Both the position numbers and the translations under genes were made by a program. Positions 20,027 through 33,104 of a DNA stretch of 64,000 nucleotides are shown piece by piece. Each line of letters opens with the position of its first letter. Within the stretch, counting starts at the first letter, position 1. The notes below the pieces were generated by a model. That model was not told the DNA's origin and ran no database searches. It worked only from the letters and a program-made list of their open reading frames with translations. Source of the stretch: Bryobacterales bacterium. GTDB lineage: Bacteria > Acidobacteriota > Terriglobia > Bryobacterales > Bryobacteraceae. The stretch spans positions 17,752 to 81,751 of the forward strand of contig JADZGD010000011.1 of assembly GCA_020854055.1 (NCBI GenBank). The letters run 5' to 3'.

Positions 20027-22369
20027 TTACTGGTCGATGGCCTTGCGCAATTTGCGGAACTTGGACTTCAGTTCTTCGCTGGCGTCGCGAATCTGAGCTG
20101 TGTCGTAAATCACCCGGGGCGTGAGAAAAACCACCAGTTCCGTGCGGTCGCGGGTGTAACTGCGGTTCCCGAACGCCGCCCCCACAATGGGTAGCCGGTG
20201 CAGCAAAGGGACACCCGAGCTGCTCATGCCGTTGCTCTCGTTGATGATGCCGCCGATGGCGATCGTATCGCCGTCCTCCACCGTGACCTGCGTCTGCACG
20301 GTGCGCTTGGAGAAAGAAGGCGACTGAATTGCCGACGTCGAAGACGGAGCCTGCGGCGAGCTCACTTCCTGGTTGATCACCAGCGTCACAACGCCGCTGG
20401 GATTCACGCGCGCCATGATGTTCAGCGTGACGCCGGTGCTGCGATTGGCGATCGAGTTGGCGAATAACGAGTTGCCGCCCTGCTGTACTCCCGTGACGGC
20501 CTGCGCCGTCAGCGTTGGCACCTCCTCGCCCACGTTGATTGAAGCGGGAATGCTGTCGGTAGCGATGACGCTCGGTTCGGAAAGAGTCTTCGTCTTGCTT
20601 GCGTTCTCGCTCAACGAAAGCGCGCCCAACAACTCGCGGCTCTTGCCCACCAGAAGGCCGGCCGTGAGCGTGGTGTAAGGCGCAACCATCGATCCCTGAA
20701 ACTGATGCGCAAAGCTGGCGGTGTTGGCCCCGCTGGCGCCCAGCCGCTGCAGATATGCGGAGACTCCGCTGGCGAAAGCGCCGCTGAGAGTTACCTCCAC
20801 AACCTTCGCTTCGATCAGAACCTGTCTCGGTGGAATATCGAGCTGTTTCAATAGCCGCAGGATCGACTCGTATTCCTCCGGAGTCGCCTGAATCAGAATC
20901 GTGTTATCCATCGGATTGGGAACAATCTGCGGACCTCTCGCCGCGGCCCTCGCCGTGCTCCCTGTCAGATACTGCCCGGTTTGGTCGGCGGATGGGCCAG
21001 GAGCCGCGGCCGTGCCGGTACCTGAAGCCGGAACCGGAGTCGAAGTCGTGCCGAGGGGCGGAACGCCCGAGCTGATGATCGAATTGGGAAGGCCCCCGAT
21101 CATCGGGTTCATTCCGTACATGCCCCCGCCATACATCCCGCCGCCGTACATTCCTCCACCATACATCCCGCCCATGCCGCCCATACCGCCCATGCCGGAG
21201 TACATACCGCCGCTCCCATACATCCCGCCGCCATACATCGATGCCCCATACATACCGCCGCCCATGCCGCCCATACCGCCCATGCCGCCCATCATTCCCA
21301 TCATGCCCATCATCCCCATCATGCCCATCATGCCGCCGCCCATATAAAGCGACATGACGGCGATTCCGATGAACTCGGCGCGGCCGTACTTCACCCGATA
21401 GACATAGTTATCCACGGAGCCCGACGGCGCGGCGACCGCGATGTCCAGCTTCTTCAACCACTCGGAGACCTGGCTGAAAACGCCGGGGTTGCTGGCAATC
21501 GCGATCAGCGTGTTGATCCGGTCAAGCGGAAGAAACTTGATGGTAGATAGCCGCTCGTTCAACGAGATCGACTTAAAGATCTTGTCCAATTCCTTGGCCA
21601 GATCCGTGGGCCGGCTGTTCTTGATGTCAAACAGGCGCACACGCTGTCCGGCCAGCGTGTCGCTATCGAACATGGCGATCAGTTCCATGGTGCGCCGCAT
21701 GTTCCGGCCGCTGTCCAGGATCATGAGCAGGTTCGCCGGCGCATACGTATAGACCTTGCCCCCATGGCCGAGAAACGGCTCCAACAGCTTCGATAGCTCA
21801 TCGGCGTTCACATATTTGAGAAAGACCAGATTCAGCCGCACACGGTCGTCTTCGGGTATCGCCTGCGCCTGCTTCTCTTCGGGAGCCAGTGGCTGGCTGG
21901 CAACATCTACCAGCGGAACGATGCGATAGACCGGGCCATTCTGCACCATGGCAAATCCATTGATGCGCAGCACCAGGTCGAGCAGCGCGCGCGTGTCGAT
22001 GGATTTGGTCTCTCCGTAGGTGAATAGCGTGACCGAGCCCTGCACCTTCGGATCGAGAACATAGTTGATCTTCAACTGCCGCGCTAACAGATCGATCACC
22101 GTGGTGAGCGAGGCATTGTCCAGATTGAGACTGCCCGTTTCCGGGCCTCCCGGGCCGGCAGTCTGCGGAATGGTAACCGGTACCGCCTTCTTGGTGTGGA
22201 CCGGTTTGTCCGCAACCTGGCCGGTAGCCGGAGCCGCCTCCTCCGGCGGGCGATTCAATTTGTCCGCCGAGGGACCGAAGCCGGGAGGAATGACAACAGG
22301 GGTCTGCGCCACCAGTAGCGAAGCCAGCGCCACGGCGGCACAACCGATTCGGATGGGCTGCGAAAACAT
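20027..22369 (-). CDS. gspD: type II secretion system secretin GspD with an internal Gly/Met/Tyr-rich insert
   Basis: Signal peptide. N0-like LNLDNASLTTVIDLLARQLKINYVLD. Repeated N-domains. C-terminal secretin core ...GVPLLHRLPIVGAAFGNRSYTRDRTELVVFLTPRVI. Confidence 0.9.
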   Translation of the reverse strand: MFSQPIRIGCAAVALASLLVAQTPVVIPPGFGPSADKLNRPPEEAAPATGQVADKPVHTKKAVPVTIPQTAGPGGPETGSLNLDNASLTTVIDLLARQLKINYVLDPKVQGSVTLFTYGETKSIDTRALLDLVLRINGFAMVQNGPVYRIVPLVDVASQPLAPEEKQAQAIPEDDRVRLNLVFLKYVNADELSKLLEPFLGHGGKVYTYAPANLLMILDSGRNMRRTMELIAMFDSDTLAGQRVRLFDIKNSRPTDLAKELDKIFKSISLNERLSTIKFLPLDRINTLIAIASNPGVFSQVSEWLKKLDIAVAAPSGSVDNYVYRVKYGRAEFIGIAVMSLYMGGGMMGMMGMMGMMGMMGGMGGMGGMGGGMYGASMYGGGMYGSGGMYSGMGGMGGMGGMYGGGMYGGGMYGGGMYGMNPMIGGLPNSIISSGVPPLGTTSTPVPASGTGTAAAPGPSADQTGQYLTGSTARAAARGPQIVPNPMDNTILIQATPEEYESILRLLKQLDIPPRQVLIEAKVVEVTLSGAFASGVSAYLQRLGASGANTASFAHQFQGSMVAPYTTLTAGLLVGKSRELLGALSLSENASKTKTLSEPSVIATDSIPASINVGEEVPTLTAQAVTGVQQGGNSLFANSIANRSTGVTLNIMARVNPSGVVTLVINQEVSSPQAPSSTSAIQSPSFSKRTVQTQVTVEDGDTIAIGGIINESNGMSSSGVPLLHRLPIVGAAFGNRSYTRDRTELVVFLTPRVIYDTAQIRDASEELKSKFRKLRKAIDQ
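21092..21343 (-). repeat. in-frame low-complexity coding repeat (MGG / MMG / MYGGG units) inside gspD
   Basis: Secretin residues about 343-426: MGGGMMGMMGMMGMMGMMGGMGGMGGMGGGMYGASMYGGGMYGSGGMYSGMGGMGGMGGMYGGGMYGGGMYGGGMYGMNPMIGG. On the plus strand the DNA shows reiterated catgccgcc / catcatgcc / gtacat units. Confidence 0.9.
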
Positions 22370-22375
22370 CGGCCG

Positions 22376-22870
22376 TTACTCCTGGCCGCCCGCGGCGGCG
22401 CCCCGCGGCGCCGCGTCCGCTTTCTTGCCCTGGTAACGCTCCCAAACACGGCGTTCGTACGCGCTCAAATCACTCTTCCTGGTGGTCCACTTAAGCAGGC
22501 CGAAAGGGCCGGGCCGGGTAAACTCGATGGCATCGCCCTTATCCGTGGCCGTGGCCATATCCACGGCCCGCCGGTCCACCACGGTCTCACGATCATATTC
22601 GGGATGGTCGGCCACGGCCAGTTTGGCCAGAGTGAATGGCGTGCGCCGGTAGATCCACTTCTTCCCTTGCGGATCGGTATATTCCCACGTATTCGGGCTG
22701 ACCAATTTCGCGCCGGCCGGAAGTCTTGCCAGCATCGGATCCGCCCGATCCGTCTTGTAAGCGCCGGTCTTCGGCGCCGCCTGGGCGTTGGCCGGCTTTG
22801 CGGAATCGGAGGCGGCGCCGGCCGCTAGCGCTGTCCCCAAACACAATACTGCCGTGATCAGCTTCTTCAT
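22376..22870 (-). CDS. hypothetical secreted protein immediately upstream of the secretin
   Basis: Signal MKKLITAVLCLGTALAAGAAS. I recognise no family. It is 6 nt from the gspD start and 9 nt after the preceding gene. Confidence 0.6.
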   Translation of the reverse strand: MKKLITAVLCLGTALAAGAASDSAKPANAQAAPKTGAYKTDRADPMLARLPAGAKLVSPNTWEYTDPQGKKWIYRRTPFTLAKLAVADHPEYDRETVVDRRAVDMATATDKGDAIEFTRPGPFGLLKWTTRKSDLSAYERRVWERYQGKKADAAPRGAAAGGQE

Positions 22871-31428: not shown

Positions 31429-31957
31429 ACTCCTGAGTCTTCAGCTTCGCGGCGATAGCGTCATCGAGCGCCTTGGGGCCGAAACCCACGAGTTGCTTTC
31501 GAGTGGCCTCCATCAGGATCTGGCCGGGAAGGCCGTCCACGTCTTCGTACTTGAAGTTGTACAGCGACACCACCACCACAATCCGCTCGTCCCCGGGAAC
31601 GGTGTCCAGTTGGTTGGCCGCATCCACCATCACCTGCCGCATGGCGCTGCGCAGCATCGGCAGGCGGGCCAGCTTGCGCTGGTGCAACTTGACCACTTCT
31701 TCCCGGCTCAGCGCCGGCCGGAAAGGCGACAGCACGATGGATATCAGGTTGACGTCGGCCGAGATCACCACGCCATAGCCCGGCAGGTAAATACCGCGCG
31801 GCTCACCGACAATGTCCAGCGCCGTGTCGGTGCTGAGCTTCACCAACCGGTTGCTGAAACTCTGTTCCACCACCTTCATCGCATCGCGCGGCACCACCGG
31901 CTTTTCGGCCGCGGCCAGCACCGCGCCGGCAGCCAGCAATACGAGCAGGTGTCTCAC
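31409..31957 (-). CDS. hypothetical secreted protein between the anti-sigma factor and gspE
   Basis: Signal MRHLLVLLAAGAVLAAAEKP. I recognise no family. 4-nt overlap with the anti-sigma stop, and its 3' end overlaps the gspE start by 20 nt. Confidence 0.55.
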   Translation of the reverse strand: MRHLLVLLAAGAVLAAAEKPVVPRDAMKVVEQSFSNRLVKLSTDTALDIVGEPRGIYLPGYGVVISADVNLISIVLSPFRPALSREEVVKLHQRKLARLPMLRSAMRQVMVDAANQLDTVPGDERIVVVVSLYNFKYEDVDGLPGQILMEATRKQLVGFGPKALDDAIAAKLKTQEFDHAAR

Positions 31958-32559
31958 TCGAGGCCCCTCTGCTCCAGGCTTGCGCGGCGATAGACTCCGA
32001 GTTGCCGTCCCATGTAGTCCAGCTTCTCGTCAAAAGCCATCTGGTCATCACGGCGCTGGAGCTCGAACCGCTTTTCAGCGGACTCCACCAGCCGCGCCGT
32101 CTCCTGCCGGCCTTCGCGGCGGGCCTGCTCAACCGCATTGCGAATCAGGTGATCCACCGGCTGAGCCGGGGCGGACACCGGGAGAGCAGCCACTCTCCGG
32201 GAGACCTCGGCCGCGACCCGCGCCTGTAGTTCCGCGCTGGAAACCACCGGAGCGGGCCGGACAAAGGTATGCACCAGGAGAGCGACAGAGAAAATCAGGG
32301 CAGAGGCGAACGTCAGCCTCGGCGCCAGGTTCCAGACCTGCCACCAGCGAGGCTCGAAGACTTTGTCGGAGACGAAGGCGATCCGCCGCGGAATCTCCTC
32401 ATCGGGCACGGTCCGCAGCACGGCTGCCGTCAATCGCAGCCGTTCCAACTCATCCCGGCAGCCGCCGCAACCCGCGATGTGCGCCTCCACCTGCCGTCTC
32501 CCGGCGGCCGGCAGTTCGTCGAACAAAAAATCCCTTAGATCAAACGGTGAGCAACTCAT
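31954..32559 (-). CDS. anti-sigma factor (zf-HC2 type), single-pass membrane protein
   Basis: H-x3-C-x2-C motif in VEAHIAGCGGCRDELERL. Central TM (APRLTFASALIFSVALLVHTFV). 4-nt overlap with the sigma gene. Confidence 0.8.
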   Translation of the reverse strand: MSCSPFDLRDFLFDELPAAGRRQVEAHIAGCGGCRDELERLRLTAAVLRTVPDEEIPRRIAFVSDKVFEPRWWQVWNLAPRLTFASALIFSVALLVHTFVRPAPVVSSAELQARVAAEVSRRVAALPVSAPAQPVDHLIRNAVEQARREGRQETARLVESAEKRFELQRRDDQMAFDEKLDYMGRQLGVYRRASLEQRGLE

Positions 32560-33104
32560 TCCACACCCCGCGCATCAATCGGAGCCAGAGCCGTCTTCAG
32601 AAGATTCAGTGCGGTGTATAACCGGGACTTCACGGTGGACACCGGGCAGCCGGTAATTTCGGCCATCTCCTCGAACTTGAACCCCTGATAGATCTTCAAC
32701 ACCACCGCTTCGCGCTGATCCTCGCTAAGCCGCGCCATGGCCGATTCCACGGCAATGGACACCTCGATGGGTAACATCCGCCCGCGGGCGCCGGGCATCG
32801 GCGCCTCGTCCTCCAACTCCCCGTCCGGCTTCGTCTTGCGCAGCAGCGAGTAGGCTTCGTTGTGCGCGATGCGGAACAACCAGGGAGCGAAACGGCTCTC
32901 GTCCTCGAGCCGGGCCAGATTCCGGTAGGCCTTGAGGAAGGTATCCTGCGTCAAGTCCAAGGCGTCCTCCCGATTCGCCACCAGCCGGAACAGGTAGTTG
33001 TAGACACGCTTCTCCCACCGGGAGACCAGGAGGTTATAAGCCTCCACCATTCCCCGGCGAGCCCTCCGAATGAGGTCACGGTCTTCAACCTCCCGAAAGA
33101 TCAA
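32556..33104 (-). CDS. ECF-type RNA polymerase sigma-70 family factor
   Basis: Region 2 DALDLTQDTFLKAYRNLARLEDESRFAPWLFRIAHNEAYSLLRK. Region 4 LSEDQREAVVLKIYQGFKFEEMAEITGCPVSTVKSRLYTAL. TTG start with AAGGAG 7 nt upstream. Confidence 0.9.
   Translation of the reverse strand: MIFREVEDRDLIRRARRGMVEAYNLLVSRWEKRVYNYLFRLVANREDALDLTQDTFLKAYRNLARLEDESRFAPWLFRIAHNEAYSLLRKTKPDGELEDEAPMPGARGRMLPIEVSIAVESAMARLSEDQREAVVLKIYQGFKFEEMAEITGCPVSTVKSRLYTALNLLKTALAPIDARGVE

What the first reader, a model, noticed from the sequence alone, without database searches (positions are those of the whole stretch)
20930..21343. Secretin with a Gly/Met/Tyr low-complexity insert of about 85 residues followed by a Pro/Thr/Ala-rich linker
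An insert lies inside what looks like the last periplasmic N-domain of GspD. It sits between ...VYRVKYGRAEFIGIAVMSLY and ...IVPNPMDNTILIQATPEEYESILRLLKQLD.

The insert has two parts:
- About 85 residues made almost only of G, M and Y (MMG, MGG and MYGGG units), encoded at 21092..21343.
- About 55 further residues of S/T/P/A-rich linker.

I do not know of this composition as a described secretin feature. A ring of 12-15 such segments projecting into or around the periplasmic vestibule could form a cohesive Met/Tyr-rich meshwork. Methionine-rich tracts are also known Cu(I)/Ag(I)-binding elements in periplasmic copper-resistance proteins. Both functional ideas are speculation.

The underlying DNA is a short-unit repeat, so length polymorphism or assembly error is possible.
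Basis: partly seen in the sequence, partly recalled or inferred. Interest (0 to 1): 0.6.

Follow-up and report, generated by a model that had tools for sequence, protein, structure and literature searches.

The report
Gly/Met/Tyr floppy loop in secretin
The outer-membrane pore protein (GspD secretin) of a soil acidobacterium's type II secretion system has a loop that is short or variable in known pores but here is a 138-residue, uncharged, disordered glycine/methionine/tyrosine segment, kept in composition across a whole clade and not found described in the papers searched; it may form a soft gel-like gasket at the pore entrance.

Summary
Window 20027..22369 (-) encodes a 780-aa GspD secretin that ends a complete T2SS operon. 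Residues 343-427 are 52% Gly, 32% Met and 10% Tyr. A Pro/Thr/Ser/Ala linker follows, then a conserved DxTGxYL motif.

The whole 138-aa insert lies between helix 1 and strand 2 of the N3 domain. The literature already knows this site as the non-conserved, usually unresolved "variable N3 loop" (InvG 217-267, MxiD 231-258, PulD 288-303, a 59-aa gap in D. radiodurans). That loop has been linked to the periplasmic N3 constriction.

The new elements are size and composition:
- All 120 closest homologues (Acidobacteriota, mostly labelled Bryobacterales) carry a glycine-rich tract at this site. It cannot be aligned between them but has the same make-up: 47% G, 17% M, 10% Y, 0.7% charged.
- Met and aromatic content trade off (rho -0.68).
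- In this 4.96-Mb assembly only two secretin ORFs have such a tract.
- More distant GspDs mostly have charged loops with a median length of about 65 aa.

The tract is not an assembly artefact, although its length varies between relatives. Copper binding is unlikely because Met is replaceable.

My best reading, at about 40%, is a cohesive, deformable meshwork or gasket at the N3 constriction. I rate it a new variant of a known kind.

The parts
20027..22369 (-). gspD, a 780-aa type II secretion secretin (stop codon included)
   Evidence: TIGR02517 386 bits against a cut-off of 351. Foldseek top hits are PulD 6hcg and GspD 5wq7.
21920..22129 (-). N0 domain (residues 81-150)
   Evidence: Pfam PF21305, 47 bits
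21344..21406 (-). First half of the N3 domain: strand 1 (322-327) and helix 1 (331-342), ending in the near-invariant L341-Y342
   Evidence: AlphaFold2 secondary structure; invariant columns
21089..21343 (-). Gly/Met/Tyr low-complexity tract, residues 343-427. The strict G/M/Y/S/A part is 343-419 (21113..21343). It is built from MMG, MGG and GGGMY units encoded by imperfect 9- and 15-nt repeats.
   Evidence: pLDDT around 30-37
20987..21088 (-). Uncharged Pro/Thr/Ser/Ala/Gly-rich linker, residues 428-461
   Evidence: pLDDT below 50
20966..20986 (-). Conserved motif DQTGQYL (residues 462-468; family consensus DxTGxYL) inside the otherwise unalignable insert. It is possibly an anchor that packs on a neighbouring subunit.
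   Evidence: D462, T464, G465, Y467 and L468 are conserved in at least 90% of 72 aligned homologues. The motif is also seen in more distant relatives.
20930..20965 (-). Last 12 residues of the insert (469-480), leading into strand 2
20840..20929 (-). Second half of the N3 domain: strands 481-485 and 490-495, helix 497-510
   Evidence: Aligns with E. coli GspD from residue 286 and PulD from residue 311.
20108..20608 (-). C-terminal secretin pore domain (residues 588-754)
   Evidence: Pfam PF00263, 145.8 bits
22376..33104 (-). Rest of the T2SS operon upstream of gspD: ECF sigma, anti-sigma, an unknown gene, gspE, gspF, gspG, three minor pseudopilins, gspK, gspL-like, gspM, gspC-like and a 164-aa exported protein of unknown family

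Best explanation
The segment is the variable N3 loop (between helix 1 and strand 2) of a T2SS GspD secretin. It has been expanded into an intrinsically disordered, uncharged insert with three parts. First comes an 85-residue Gly/Met/Tyr low-complexity tract attached directly to the end of helix 1. Next is a 34-residue Pro/Thr/Ser/Ala return linker. Last is a conserved DxTGxYL motif about 12 residues before strand 2.

Shown here:
- The tract turns over by in-frame slippage of 9- and 15-nt units, so its sequence cannot be aligned between relatives and its length drifts.
- Selection holds its composition: about half glycine spacers, about 30% hydrophobic 'stickers' (Met and Tyr/Phe, which are interchangeable), and almost no charge.

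Inferred: in the 15-mer the loops add about 120 kDa of tract (194 kDa with the linkers) at the level of the N3 ring. There they most likely form a cohesive, deformable meshwork. This would be an enlarged, soft version of the N3 'constriction' seen in solved secretins. It would act as a gasket or plug under the periplasmic gate. The pseudopilus and a folded substrate would push it aside, or it would thread out between the N-domain rings, as the InvG loop does when the needle is present.
For: Identity and site:
- establish a GspD with the insert between helix 331-342 and strand 481-485.
- In solved GspDs the same interval is about 30-35 residues, against 146-153 here.

The site is a known variable loop tied to the periplasmic constriction:
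- InvG 217-267 was proposed to account for the constriction in the closed state, and it threads out between N3 and N1 when the needle fills the lumen (PMC6155069).
- PulD loop 288-303 is unresolved and 'N3 domain constriction sites' are described (PMC6882859).
- D. radiodurans DR_0774 has a 59-aa unresolved gap in N3 (PMC10828601).
- MxiD 231-258 is 'not conserved' (PMC7058355).

Selection on composition:
- All 120 closest homologues (53-69% identity) have the tract.
- The pooled tract cores of those 120 homologues plus the query total 11,695 residues: 47.3% G, 17.4% M, 10.1% Y and only 0.68% D+E+K+R. Ala (5.3%) and Ser (2.6%), which are also one mutational step from Gly, are roughly ten times commoner than Asp or Arg.
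- Met and aromatic fractions anticorrelate (Spearman -0.68). Their sum varies half as much as either alone.
- Insert length stays within 82-150 aa.
- Gly codons within the tract differ synonymously.

Specificity: only the two secretin ORFs in the assembly have such a tract.

Recurrence: a secretin of 29% identity (L033) carries a G/F/Y/M tract in the same loop. Several representatives at or below 42% identity carry G/Y/S or G/S/F tracts.

Geometry: the compact volume of 15 tracts (about 145,000 cubic angstroms) is close to the lumen of the N3 slab. Spread over a vestibule 75 A wide and 120 A long, the tracts would be at about 380 mg/ml (the dimensions are assumed round values near the about 67-77 A N-domain constrictions reported).
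Against: - No multimer model, map or experiment shows where the loop goes. AlphaFold2 gives no confident structure for it, and no model coordinates were available to measure orientation.
- If all the chain sat in the lumen, it would fill 27-44% of the vestibule volume. That could hinder entry of the pseudopilus and substrate, which favours at least partial threading to the outside.
- A genus of the same order (L068/L069) has a short acidic loop of about 30-35 aa and no tract, so the tract is dispensable for T2SS function as such.
- More distant GspDs have long charged loops (median about 65 aa). The site therefore tolerates many compositions.
- The Met/aromatic correlation is not corrected for phylogeny.
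Confidence: 0.4

Rival explanations
1. Outward collar or elastic tether. The loops leave the lumen between the N3 and N2 rings and lie on the outside of the secretin. There the cohesive, rubber-like Gly/aromatic chains strap neighbouring subunits together, or contact peptidoglycan or GspC. They would let the N-domain rings dilate and recoil during secretion.
For: - With the needle present, the InvG loop threads out between N3 and N1 and stabilises the N domains (PMC6155069).
- The volume estimate shows that the lumen would be crowded.
- The long Pro/Thr/Ala return linker and the conserved DxTGxYL motif look like a tether with a fixed anchor.
Against: - The tract starts immediately after helix 1, with no spacer that could carry it through a ring.
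- In closed-state structures the equivalent loop is associated with lumenal constriction density.
- There is no structural evidence either way for this protein.
Confidence: 0.25
2. Tolerated filler. The tract is slippage-generated low-complexity sequence in a loop that accepts almost anything. The only constraint is that it stays unstructured, uncharged and non-toxic. It has no specific role.
For: - Repeat units of 9 and 15 nt.
- Length differs by 11 aa between genes that are 95.5% identical.
- Same-order relatives lack the tract.
- The loop is long and compositionally diverse across GspDs.
Against: - Composition is held across genes whose flanks are only 53-69% identical.
- Met (the AT-rich codon ATG, 2% of the rest of the protein) is enriched about ninefold.
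- Charged one-step neighbours of Gly codons are about tenfold depleted relative to Ala and Ser.
- The Met/aromatic trade-off.
- Length is confined to 82-150 aa, and the tract is never lost among the 120 closest homologues.
- Nothing else in the genome has this composition.
Confidence: 0.25
3. Metal or redox element. The Met-rich tract binds Cu(I)/Ag(I) as the Met-rich regions of periplasmic copper-resistance proteins do, or it acts as a Met-oxidation sensor or scavenger.
For: The tract in this protein is 32% Met. Met-rich low-complexity domains whose self-association is controlled by Met oxidation are known, for example yeast Pbp1 (reviewed in PMC8394241, found but not read).
Against: - Met is not conserved. 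Its fraction runs from 0 to 0.42, and eight homologues have less than 5% Met with Tyr/Phe/Gln in its place.
- His is 0.03% and Asp 0.3%, and there are no MxxM/His motifs.
- The operon is a pure T2SS block with no copper genes.
Confidence: 0.06
4. Assembly artefact or frameshifted pseudogene.
For: The repeat is hard for short-read assemblers: in 4 of 41 related genomes contigs end inside it.
Against: - The reading frame is intact for 780 aa with both N3 halves in frame.
- All repeat periods are multiples of three.
- The longest exact internal repeat is 30 nt.
- The tract lies inside a 173-kb contig.
- Equivalent tracts occur in single-contig genomes (G011, G027) and in more than 100 independent assemblies.
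Confidence: 0.02

Closest known systems
Variable N3 loop of secretins (InvG 217-267; MxiD 231-258; PulD 288-303; the 59-aa unresolved N3 gap of D. radiodurans DR_0774)
   Same: [quoted passage not shown]
- Not conserved in sequence.
- Disordered or unresolved.
- Associated with the periplasmic N3 constriction.
   Different: - About 2.5 to 9 times longer, at 138 aa.
- Extreme, uncharged Gly/Met/Tyr composition that is conserved across a clade.
- Internal tandem-repeat structure.
- A conserved DxTGxYL motif near its C-terminal end.
Klebsiella/Vibrio-type T2SS secretins GspD/PulD/XcpQ (PDB 5wq7, 6hcg, 5wq8, 5wln)
   Same: - N0-N1-N2-N3-secretin architecture.
- TIGR02517 score above the cut-off.
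- Full gsp operon.
- Best sequence and fold matches.
   Different: Only 16-18% identity in the Foldseek structural alignments to these GspD/PulD chains (15% for XcpQ). The N3 helix-to-strand interval is 146-153 residues against 30-35. The protein comes from Acidobacteriota, where no secretin has been studied.
FG-nucleoporin and FUS/Pbp1-type cohesive low-complexity domains (comparison from general knowledge; Pbp1 reviewed in PMC8394241, not read)
   Same: - Uncharged and disordered.
- Aromatic or Met 'stickers' separated by Gly-rich spacers.
- Many copies grafted onto a ring around a transport channel.
   Different: - No homology.
- Bacterial and periplasmic.
- Self-association, gel formation and selective permeability are all untested.
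- Glycine content, at about 50%, is higher than in FG domains.
Met-rich Cu(I)-binding segments of periplasmic copper proteins (CopA/PcoA, CueO, CusF; from general knowledge)
   Same: High Met content in a periplasmic segment.
   Different: - Met is replaceable by Tyr/Phe/Gln in homologues.
- No His or Asp partners.
- No copper-resistance gene context.

Membership tests
T2SS secretin GspD (TIGR02517) | N0 domain plus repeated Secretin_N (ring-building) domains plus a C-terminal Secretin pore domain | tested here: met
   Pfam PF21305 47 bits, PF03958 91 bits (3 stretches), PF00263 146 bits. The AlphaFold2 secondary-structure elements follow the N0, N-domain and secretin-domain order.
T2SS secretin GspD (TIGR02517) | Score above the curated equivalog cut-off | tested here: met
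   386.2 bits against a cut-off of 351.35. PilQ, MshL, HofQ and SctC models all score below their cut-offs.
T2SS secretin GspD (TIGR02517) | Encoded with gspE, F, G, minor pseudopilins, K, L, M and C | tested here: met
   T2SSE, T2SSF, T2SSG, three N_methyl proteins, T2SSK, GspL-like, GspM and a weak GspC_delta hit lie directly upstream on the same strand.
T2SS secretin GspD (TIGR02517) | Forms a 15-mer outer-membrane pore that secretes folded proteins | not testable with these tools
   Inferred from homology only.
Variable N3 loop of secretins | Located between the first helix and the second strand of N3 | tested here: met
   Helix 331-342, insert, strand 481-485. Alignment to 5wq7 and 6hcg brackets the same interval. 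The site is defined in PMC6155069.
Variable N3 loop of secretins | Sequence not conserved; disordered or unresolved | tested here: met
   Cannot be aligned between homologues apart from the DxTGxYL motif. pLDDT is below 50 over nearly all of 345-476.
Variable N3 loop of secretins | Contributes to the periplasmic constriction of the channel | not testable with these tools
   This needs a multimer structure. Only literature analogy is available.
Cohesive FG/FUS-like low-complexity domain (works-like comparison) | Uncharged, disordered, aromatic/hydrophobic stickers in flexible spacers | tested here: met
   52% G, 32% M, 10% Y and no charged residue in residues 343-419. The family-wide figure is 0.68% charged.
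Cohesive FG/FUS-like low-complexity domain (works-like comparison) | Self-associates into a gel or condensate and forms a permeability barrier | not testable with these tools
Met-rich Cu(I)/Ag(I)-binding segment | Conserved Met (with His/Asp) ligand motifs | tested here: not met
   Met fraction 0-0.42, anticorrelated with aromatics. His 0.03%.
Met-rich Cu(I)/Ag(I)-binding segment | Copper or silver resistance gene context | tested here: not met
   The operon contains only T2SS genes plus an ECF sigma/anti-sigma pair.

The most novel reading that the evidence does not exclude
The fifteen Gly/Met/Tyr loops form a true cohesive phase inside the periplasmic vestibule of the secretin. This would be a bacterial counterpart of the FG-nucleoporin barrier. 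It would seal the channel and exclude bystander periplasmic proteins while the pseudopilus drives cognate folded substrates through. Its cohesion might be tunable by reversible Met oxidation. The recurrence of Gly/aromatic tracts at the same loop in distant secretins (L033; representatives at or below 42% identity; earlier scan notes from Hydrogenedentota, Armatimonadota and Planctomycetota) would then be convergent evolution of a gel-gated outer-membrane channel.
Probability: 0.12. Interest if true: 0.9.

Novelty: new variant of a known kind. Interest (0 to 1): 0.58.

Why it matters
Secretins are the shared outer-membrane gate of type II and III secretion, type IV pili and filamentous phage export. 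Nearly all structural work comes from Proteobacteria, where the N3 loop is short and is usually discarded as unresolved density.

In Acidobacteriota, a phylum that is abundant in soil, the same loop is a conserved Gly/Met/Tyr low-complexity domain that would add 120-190 kDa per pore. This suggests that the 'N3 constriction' can be a functional soft element and not just a stray loop.

If the tract self-associates, it would be a rare bacterial example of a low-complexity gel built into a transport channel. Nature has also provided controls: relatives with short loops, Met-rich versus Tyr-rich versions, and length variants.

There is a practical lesson as well. These repeats break short-read assemblies at gspD in related genomes.

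Tried and rejected
- **Read support.** As a substitute I measured the longest exact internal repeat (30 nt) and relied on conservation in single-contig genomes.
- **Loop orientation.** The model coordinates are not exposed to the Python box and only monomers can be predicted. Whether the loop faces the lumen or the outside remains inferred from the literature. Yan et al. 2017 (the GspD structures) is not held.
- **Copper hypothesis.** Rejected because Met is not conserved and there are no His or copper genes.
- **'Two paralogues keep the tract'.** Weakened. The second copy sits on a 4.2-kb contig and is 95.5% identical to a gene from another genus, so it is probably mis-binned. Most relatives have one copy.
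- **Co-occurrence of the 164-aa neighbour gene with the tract.** Inconclusive. The gene was detected in 40 of the 69 loci held. It is missing by tblastn in both short-loop relatives, but also in one tract-bearing relative.
- **The + strand ORF 20901..21347 (148 aa, Pro/Ile/Tyr-rich).** This is only the antisense reading of the repeat and is not a gene.
- **Literature.** Searches for secretin combined with methionine-rich, glycine-rich, low-complexity, intrinsically disordered or Acidobacteria found no description of this feature. The library lacks most subscription journals, so absence is not proof.
Full report
**1. Is it there?**

Yes. The minus-strand ORF 20027..22369 encodes a 780-residue protein.
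- It has a signal peptide, a Pfam N0 domain (residues 81-150), three Secretin_N stretches and a C-terminal Secretin domain (588-754).
- It passes the NCBIfam GspD equivalog cut-off (386 against 351 bits). The PilQ, MshL, HofQ and SctC models all fall below theirs.
- Directly upstream on the same strand lie a 164-aa exported protein, a gspC-like gene, gspM, a gspL-like PilM/PilN fusion, gspK, three minor pseudopilins, gspG, gspF, gspE, an unknown gene, and an anti-sigma/ECF sigma pair. This is the secretin of a complete type II secretion operon.

Residues 343-419 (window 21113..21343) consist of 40 Gly, 25 Met, 8 Tyr, 3 Ser and 1 Ala. With the MNPMIGG tail the tract ends at residue 427 (window 21089). 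Residues 428-480 (window 20930..21088) are an uncharged Pro/Thr/Ser/Ala/Gly-rich stretch.

The DNA is made of imperfect 9-, 15- and 30-nt units at 73-92% match, all multiples of three. Gly codons within the repeat differ synonymously (GGC 24, GGG 7, GGT 5, GGA 4).

**2. Where in the fold?**

AlphaFold2 with a 72-sequence alignment gives strand 322-327, helix 331-342, then pLDDT below 50 over nearly all of 345-476, then strands 481-485 and 490-495 and helix 497-510. This is a beta-alpha-beta-beta-alpha ring-building N domain split between helix 1 and strand 2.

Sequence alignment to solved GspDs brackets the same interval. Query 332 to 478 corresponds to 256 to 286 in E. coli GspD (5wq7), and query 331 to 484 corresponds to 276 to 311 in PulD (6hcg). 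That is about 146-153 residues here against 30-35 there. Foldseek's best matches are PulD, GspD, EpsD and ExeD.

**3. The site is known; the content is not.**

- Hu et al. [quoted passage not shown] They had proposed that it accounts for the periplasmic constriction of the closed channel. When the needle fills the lumen, it threads out between N3 and N1 and stabilises the N domains.
- In MxiD the equivalent insertion (231-258) 'is not conserved' (PMC7058355).
- In PulD, loop 288-303 is unresolved and 'N3 domain constriction sites' are noted (PMC6882859).
- D. radiodurans DR_0774 has a 59-residue unresolved gap in N3 and a constriction of about 67 A (PMC10828601).
- A review figure adapted from Yan et al. 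2017 shows N3 constriction sites opening on substrate passage (PMC9251779).

None of these loops is described as glycine-, methionine- or tyrosine-rich. Four literature searches found no description of such a tract in any secretin.

**4. How widespread?**

All 120 best database homologues (53-69% identity) carry a glycine-rich low-complexity tract at the same place. They come from metagenomes; the named ones are mostly labelled Acidobacteriota, Bryobacterales or Bryobacteraceae.

The sequences cannot be aligned (MGMGG, GGGMY, GYGMG, GGGQY and GGGF units, among others), but the composition is constant.
- Over the pooled tract cores of those homologues plus the query (121 cores, 11,695 residues): 47.3% G, 17.4% M, 10.1% Y, 5.3% A, 4.3% P and only 0.68% D+E+K+R. 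In 79 of 121 cores there is no charged residue at all.
- The rest of these proteins is 6.4% G, 2.0% M and 1.7% Y.
- Whole-insert length is 82-150 aa with a median of 126.
- One short motif within the insert is conserved in at least 90% of sequences: D462, T464, G465, Y467 and L468, giving DxTGxYL.

I then searched 1.8 billion cluster representatives with the C-terminal 310 residues only, so that the tract could not bias the hits. Representatives at 54% identity or more nearly all have G-rich uncharged loops, with one exception that keeps the motif but has an S/G/A/P loop. At 45% or less, loops are still long (median about 65 aa) but ordinarily charged (10-30% DEKR). There are sporadic G/Y/S, G/S/F or G/Q/S cases.

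Among 40 genomes of the same family or order, most carry the tract. One genus with several near-complete genomes has a short acidic loop of about 30-35 aa instead (L068, L069).

A 594-aa secretin from an unclassified MAG (L033, 29% identity) has a 95-aa G/F/Y/M tract in the same helix-strand loop. A Fimbriimonadales secretin (L032) has Q/N/G/R-rich inserts in the corresponding loops of two N domains.

Earlier notes from this scan report similar tracts in secretins of another acidobacterium and of Hydrogenedentota, Armatimonadota and Planctomycetota. I treat these as leads only.

**5. Chance, artefact or selection?**

*Genome-wide specificity.* A six-frame scan of the 4.96-Mb assembly found such a tract in only two of 20,620 frames, both secretins. 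This held under strict and under relaxed criteria. The second copy sits on a 4.2-kb contig and is 95.5% identical to the gene of a different genus (L045), so it is probably a mis-binned contig, not a paralogue. It is useful all the same: between these two near-identical genes the insert differs by 11 residues (144 vs 133), which shows repeat-number change.

*Assembly.* Contigs end inside the repeat in 4 of 41 related assemblies, so exact lengths in MAGs deserve caution. In this window the longest exact internal repeat is 30 nt, the tract lies within a 173-kb contig, and the frame is intact.

*Evidence for selection on composition:*
- Asp, Glu and Arg are one mutational step from Gly codons, yet they are about tenfold rarer than Ala and Ser, which are also one step away.
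- Met, encoded by an AT-rich codon in a 61.5% GC genome, is enriched about ninefold.
- Met and aromatic fractions anticorrelate (Spearman -0.68, p about 1e-17, not corrected for phylogeny). Their sum has half the coefficient of variation of either (0.23 against about 0.5). Met and Tyr/Phe therefore behave as interchangeable hydrophobic residues within a constant glycine matrix.

**6. Mechanism.**

*Shown:*
- A disordered, uncharged, sticker-and-spacer type segment is grafted at the variable N3 loop of a T2SS secretin.
- Its composition is conserved.
- It evolves by in-frame slippage.

*Inferred:*
- Fifteen copies give 120 kDa of tract, or 194 kDa with the linkers. The compact volume of the tracts (about 145,000 cubic angstroms) equals that of a lumen slab 70 A wide and 35 A high. 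Spread through a vestibule 75 A wide and 120 A long, they would be at about 380 mg/ml (the dimensions are assumed round values near the about 67-77 A N-domain constrictions reported).
- The chains must therefore dominate whatever space they occupy.
- My preferred reading (about 0.4) is an enlarged, cohesive, deformable N3 constriction. It would act as a soft gasket or plug under the gate that the pseudopilus and substrate displace, possibly by the same threading-out movement seen for InvG.
- By analogy with InvG residues 252-260, the conserved DxTGxYL motif would be the fixed return anchor, packing on a neighbouring subunit.

*Rivals:*
- A permanently external elastic collar (0.25).
- Tolerated filler under a 'no charge, no fold' constraint only (0.25).
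- A metal or redox role (0.06). It is disfavoured because Met is replaceable, His is absent and the gene context is purely T2SS.
- Artefact (0.02).

**7. Verdict.**

This is a bona fide GspD. The feature is a new variant of a known element: the variable N3 loop, expanded into a clade-conserved Gly/Met/Tyr low-complexity domain. It is apparently undescribed in the literature available here, although the scan has met it repeatedly.

Interest is moderate to high, for three reasons:
- The composition is strongly constrained.
- The position in the channel is suggestive.
- Natural variants provide ready-made controls.

Function remains inferred.

Noticed in passing
window 22376..22870 (-): A 164-aa exported protein with no Pfam or NCBIfam match lies between the gspC-like gene and gspD. 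tblastn finds it in the same position in 40 related loci. It was not detected in the two short-loop relatives, nor in one tract-bearing relative. It could be a pilotin-like or accessory component.
   Followed up: partly
assembly contig C6 (4.2 kb; outside the window): This contig carries a second gspC-like / 177-aa / gspD block whose secretin has a (GYGMG)n tract. It is 95.5% identical to the gene of another genus (L045), so the contig is probably mis-binned. The insert is 144 aa against 133 aa, which demonstrates repeat-number polymorphism.
   Followed up: yes
related genomes G002, G006, G013, G038: In these genomes gspD is split across contigs whose ends fall inside the low-complexity repeat. 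Short-read assemblies break at this tract, so gspD will often be annotated as fragments in acidobacterial MAGs.
   Followed up: partly
L033:5098-6879 and L032:2784-5225: A 594-aa secretin from an unclassified MAG (29% identity) has a G/F/Y/M tract in the same helix 1-strand 2 loop. A Fimbriimonadales secretin has Q/N/G/R-rich inserts in the equivalent loops of two N domains. The same loop seems to have been expanded independently in other lineages.
   Followed up: partly
L068, L069 (same order, genus g30): Near-complete genomes (1-2 contigs) whose GspD (660-690 aa) has only a 30-35-aa acidic loop and no low-complexity tract. They are natural 'deletion' controls.
   Followed up: partly
window 31954..33104 (-): An ECF sigma factor and a zf-HC2 anti-sigma gene head the T2SS operon on the same strand. 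This suggests that envelope-stress or signal-dependent control governs secretion. The scan has already logged this as a separate finding.
   Followed up: no
L028 and L030: These records are titled 'Bordetella parapertussis' MAG and 'Candidatus Limnocylindrales', yet they carry acidobacterial-type gspD loci with Gly-rich tracts. The contigs are probably mislabelled or mis-binned.
   Followed up: no
window 20901..21347 (+): A 148-aa Pro/Ile/Tyr-rich ORF that is merely the antisense reading of the repeat. Gene callers could mis-annotate it.
   Followed up: yes
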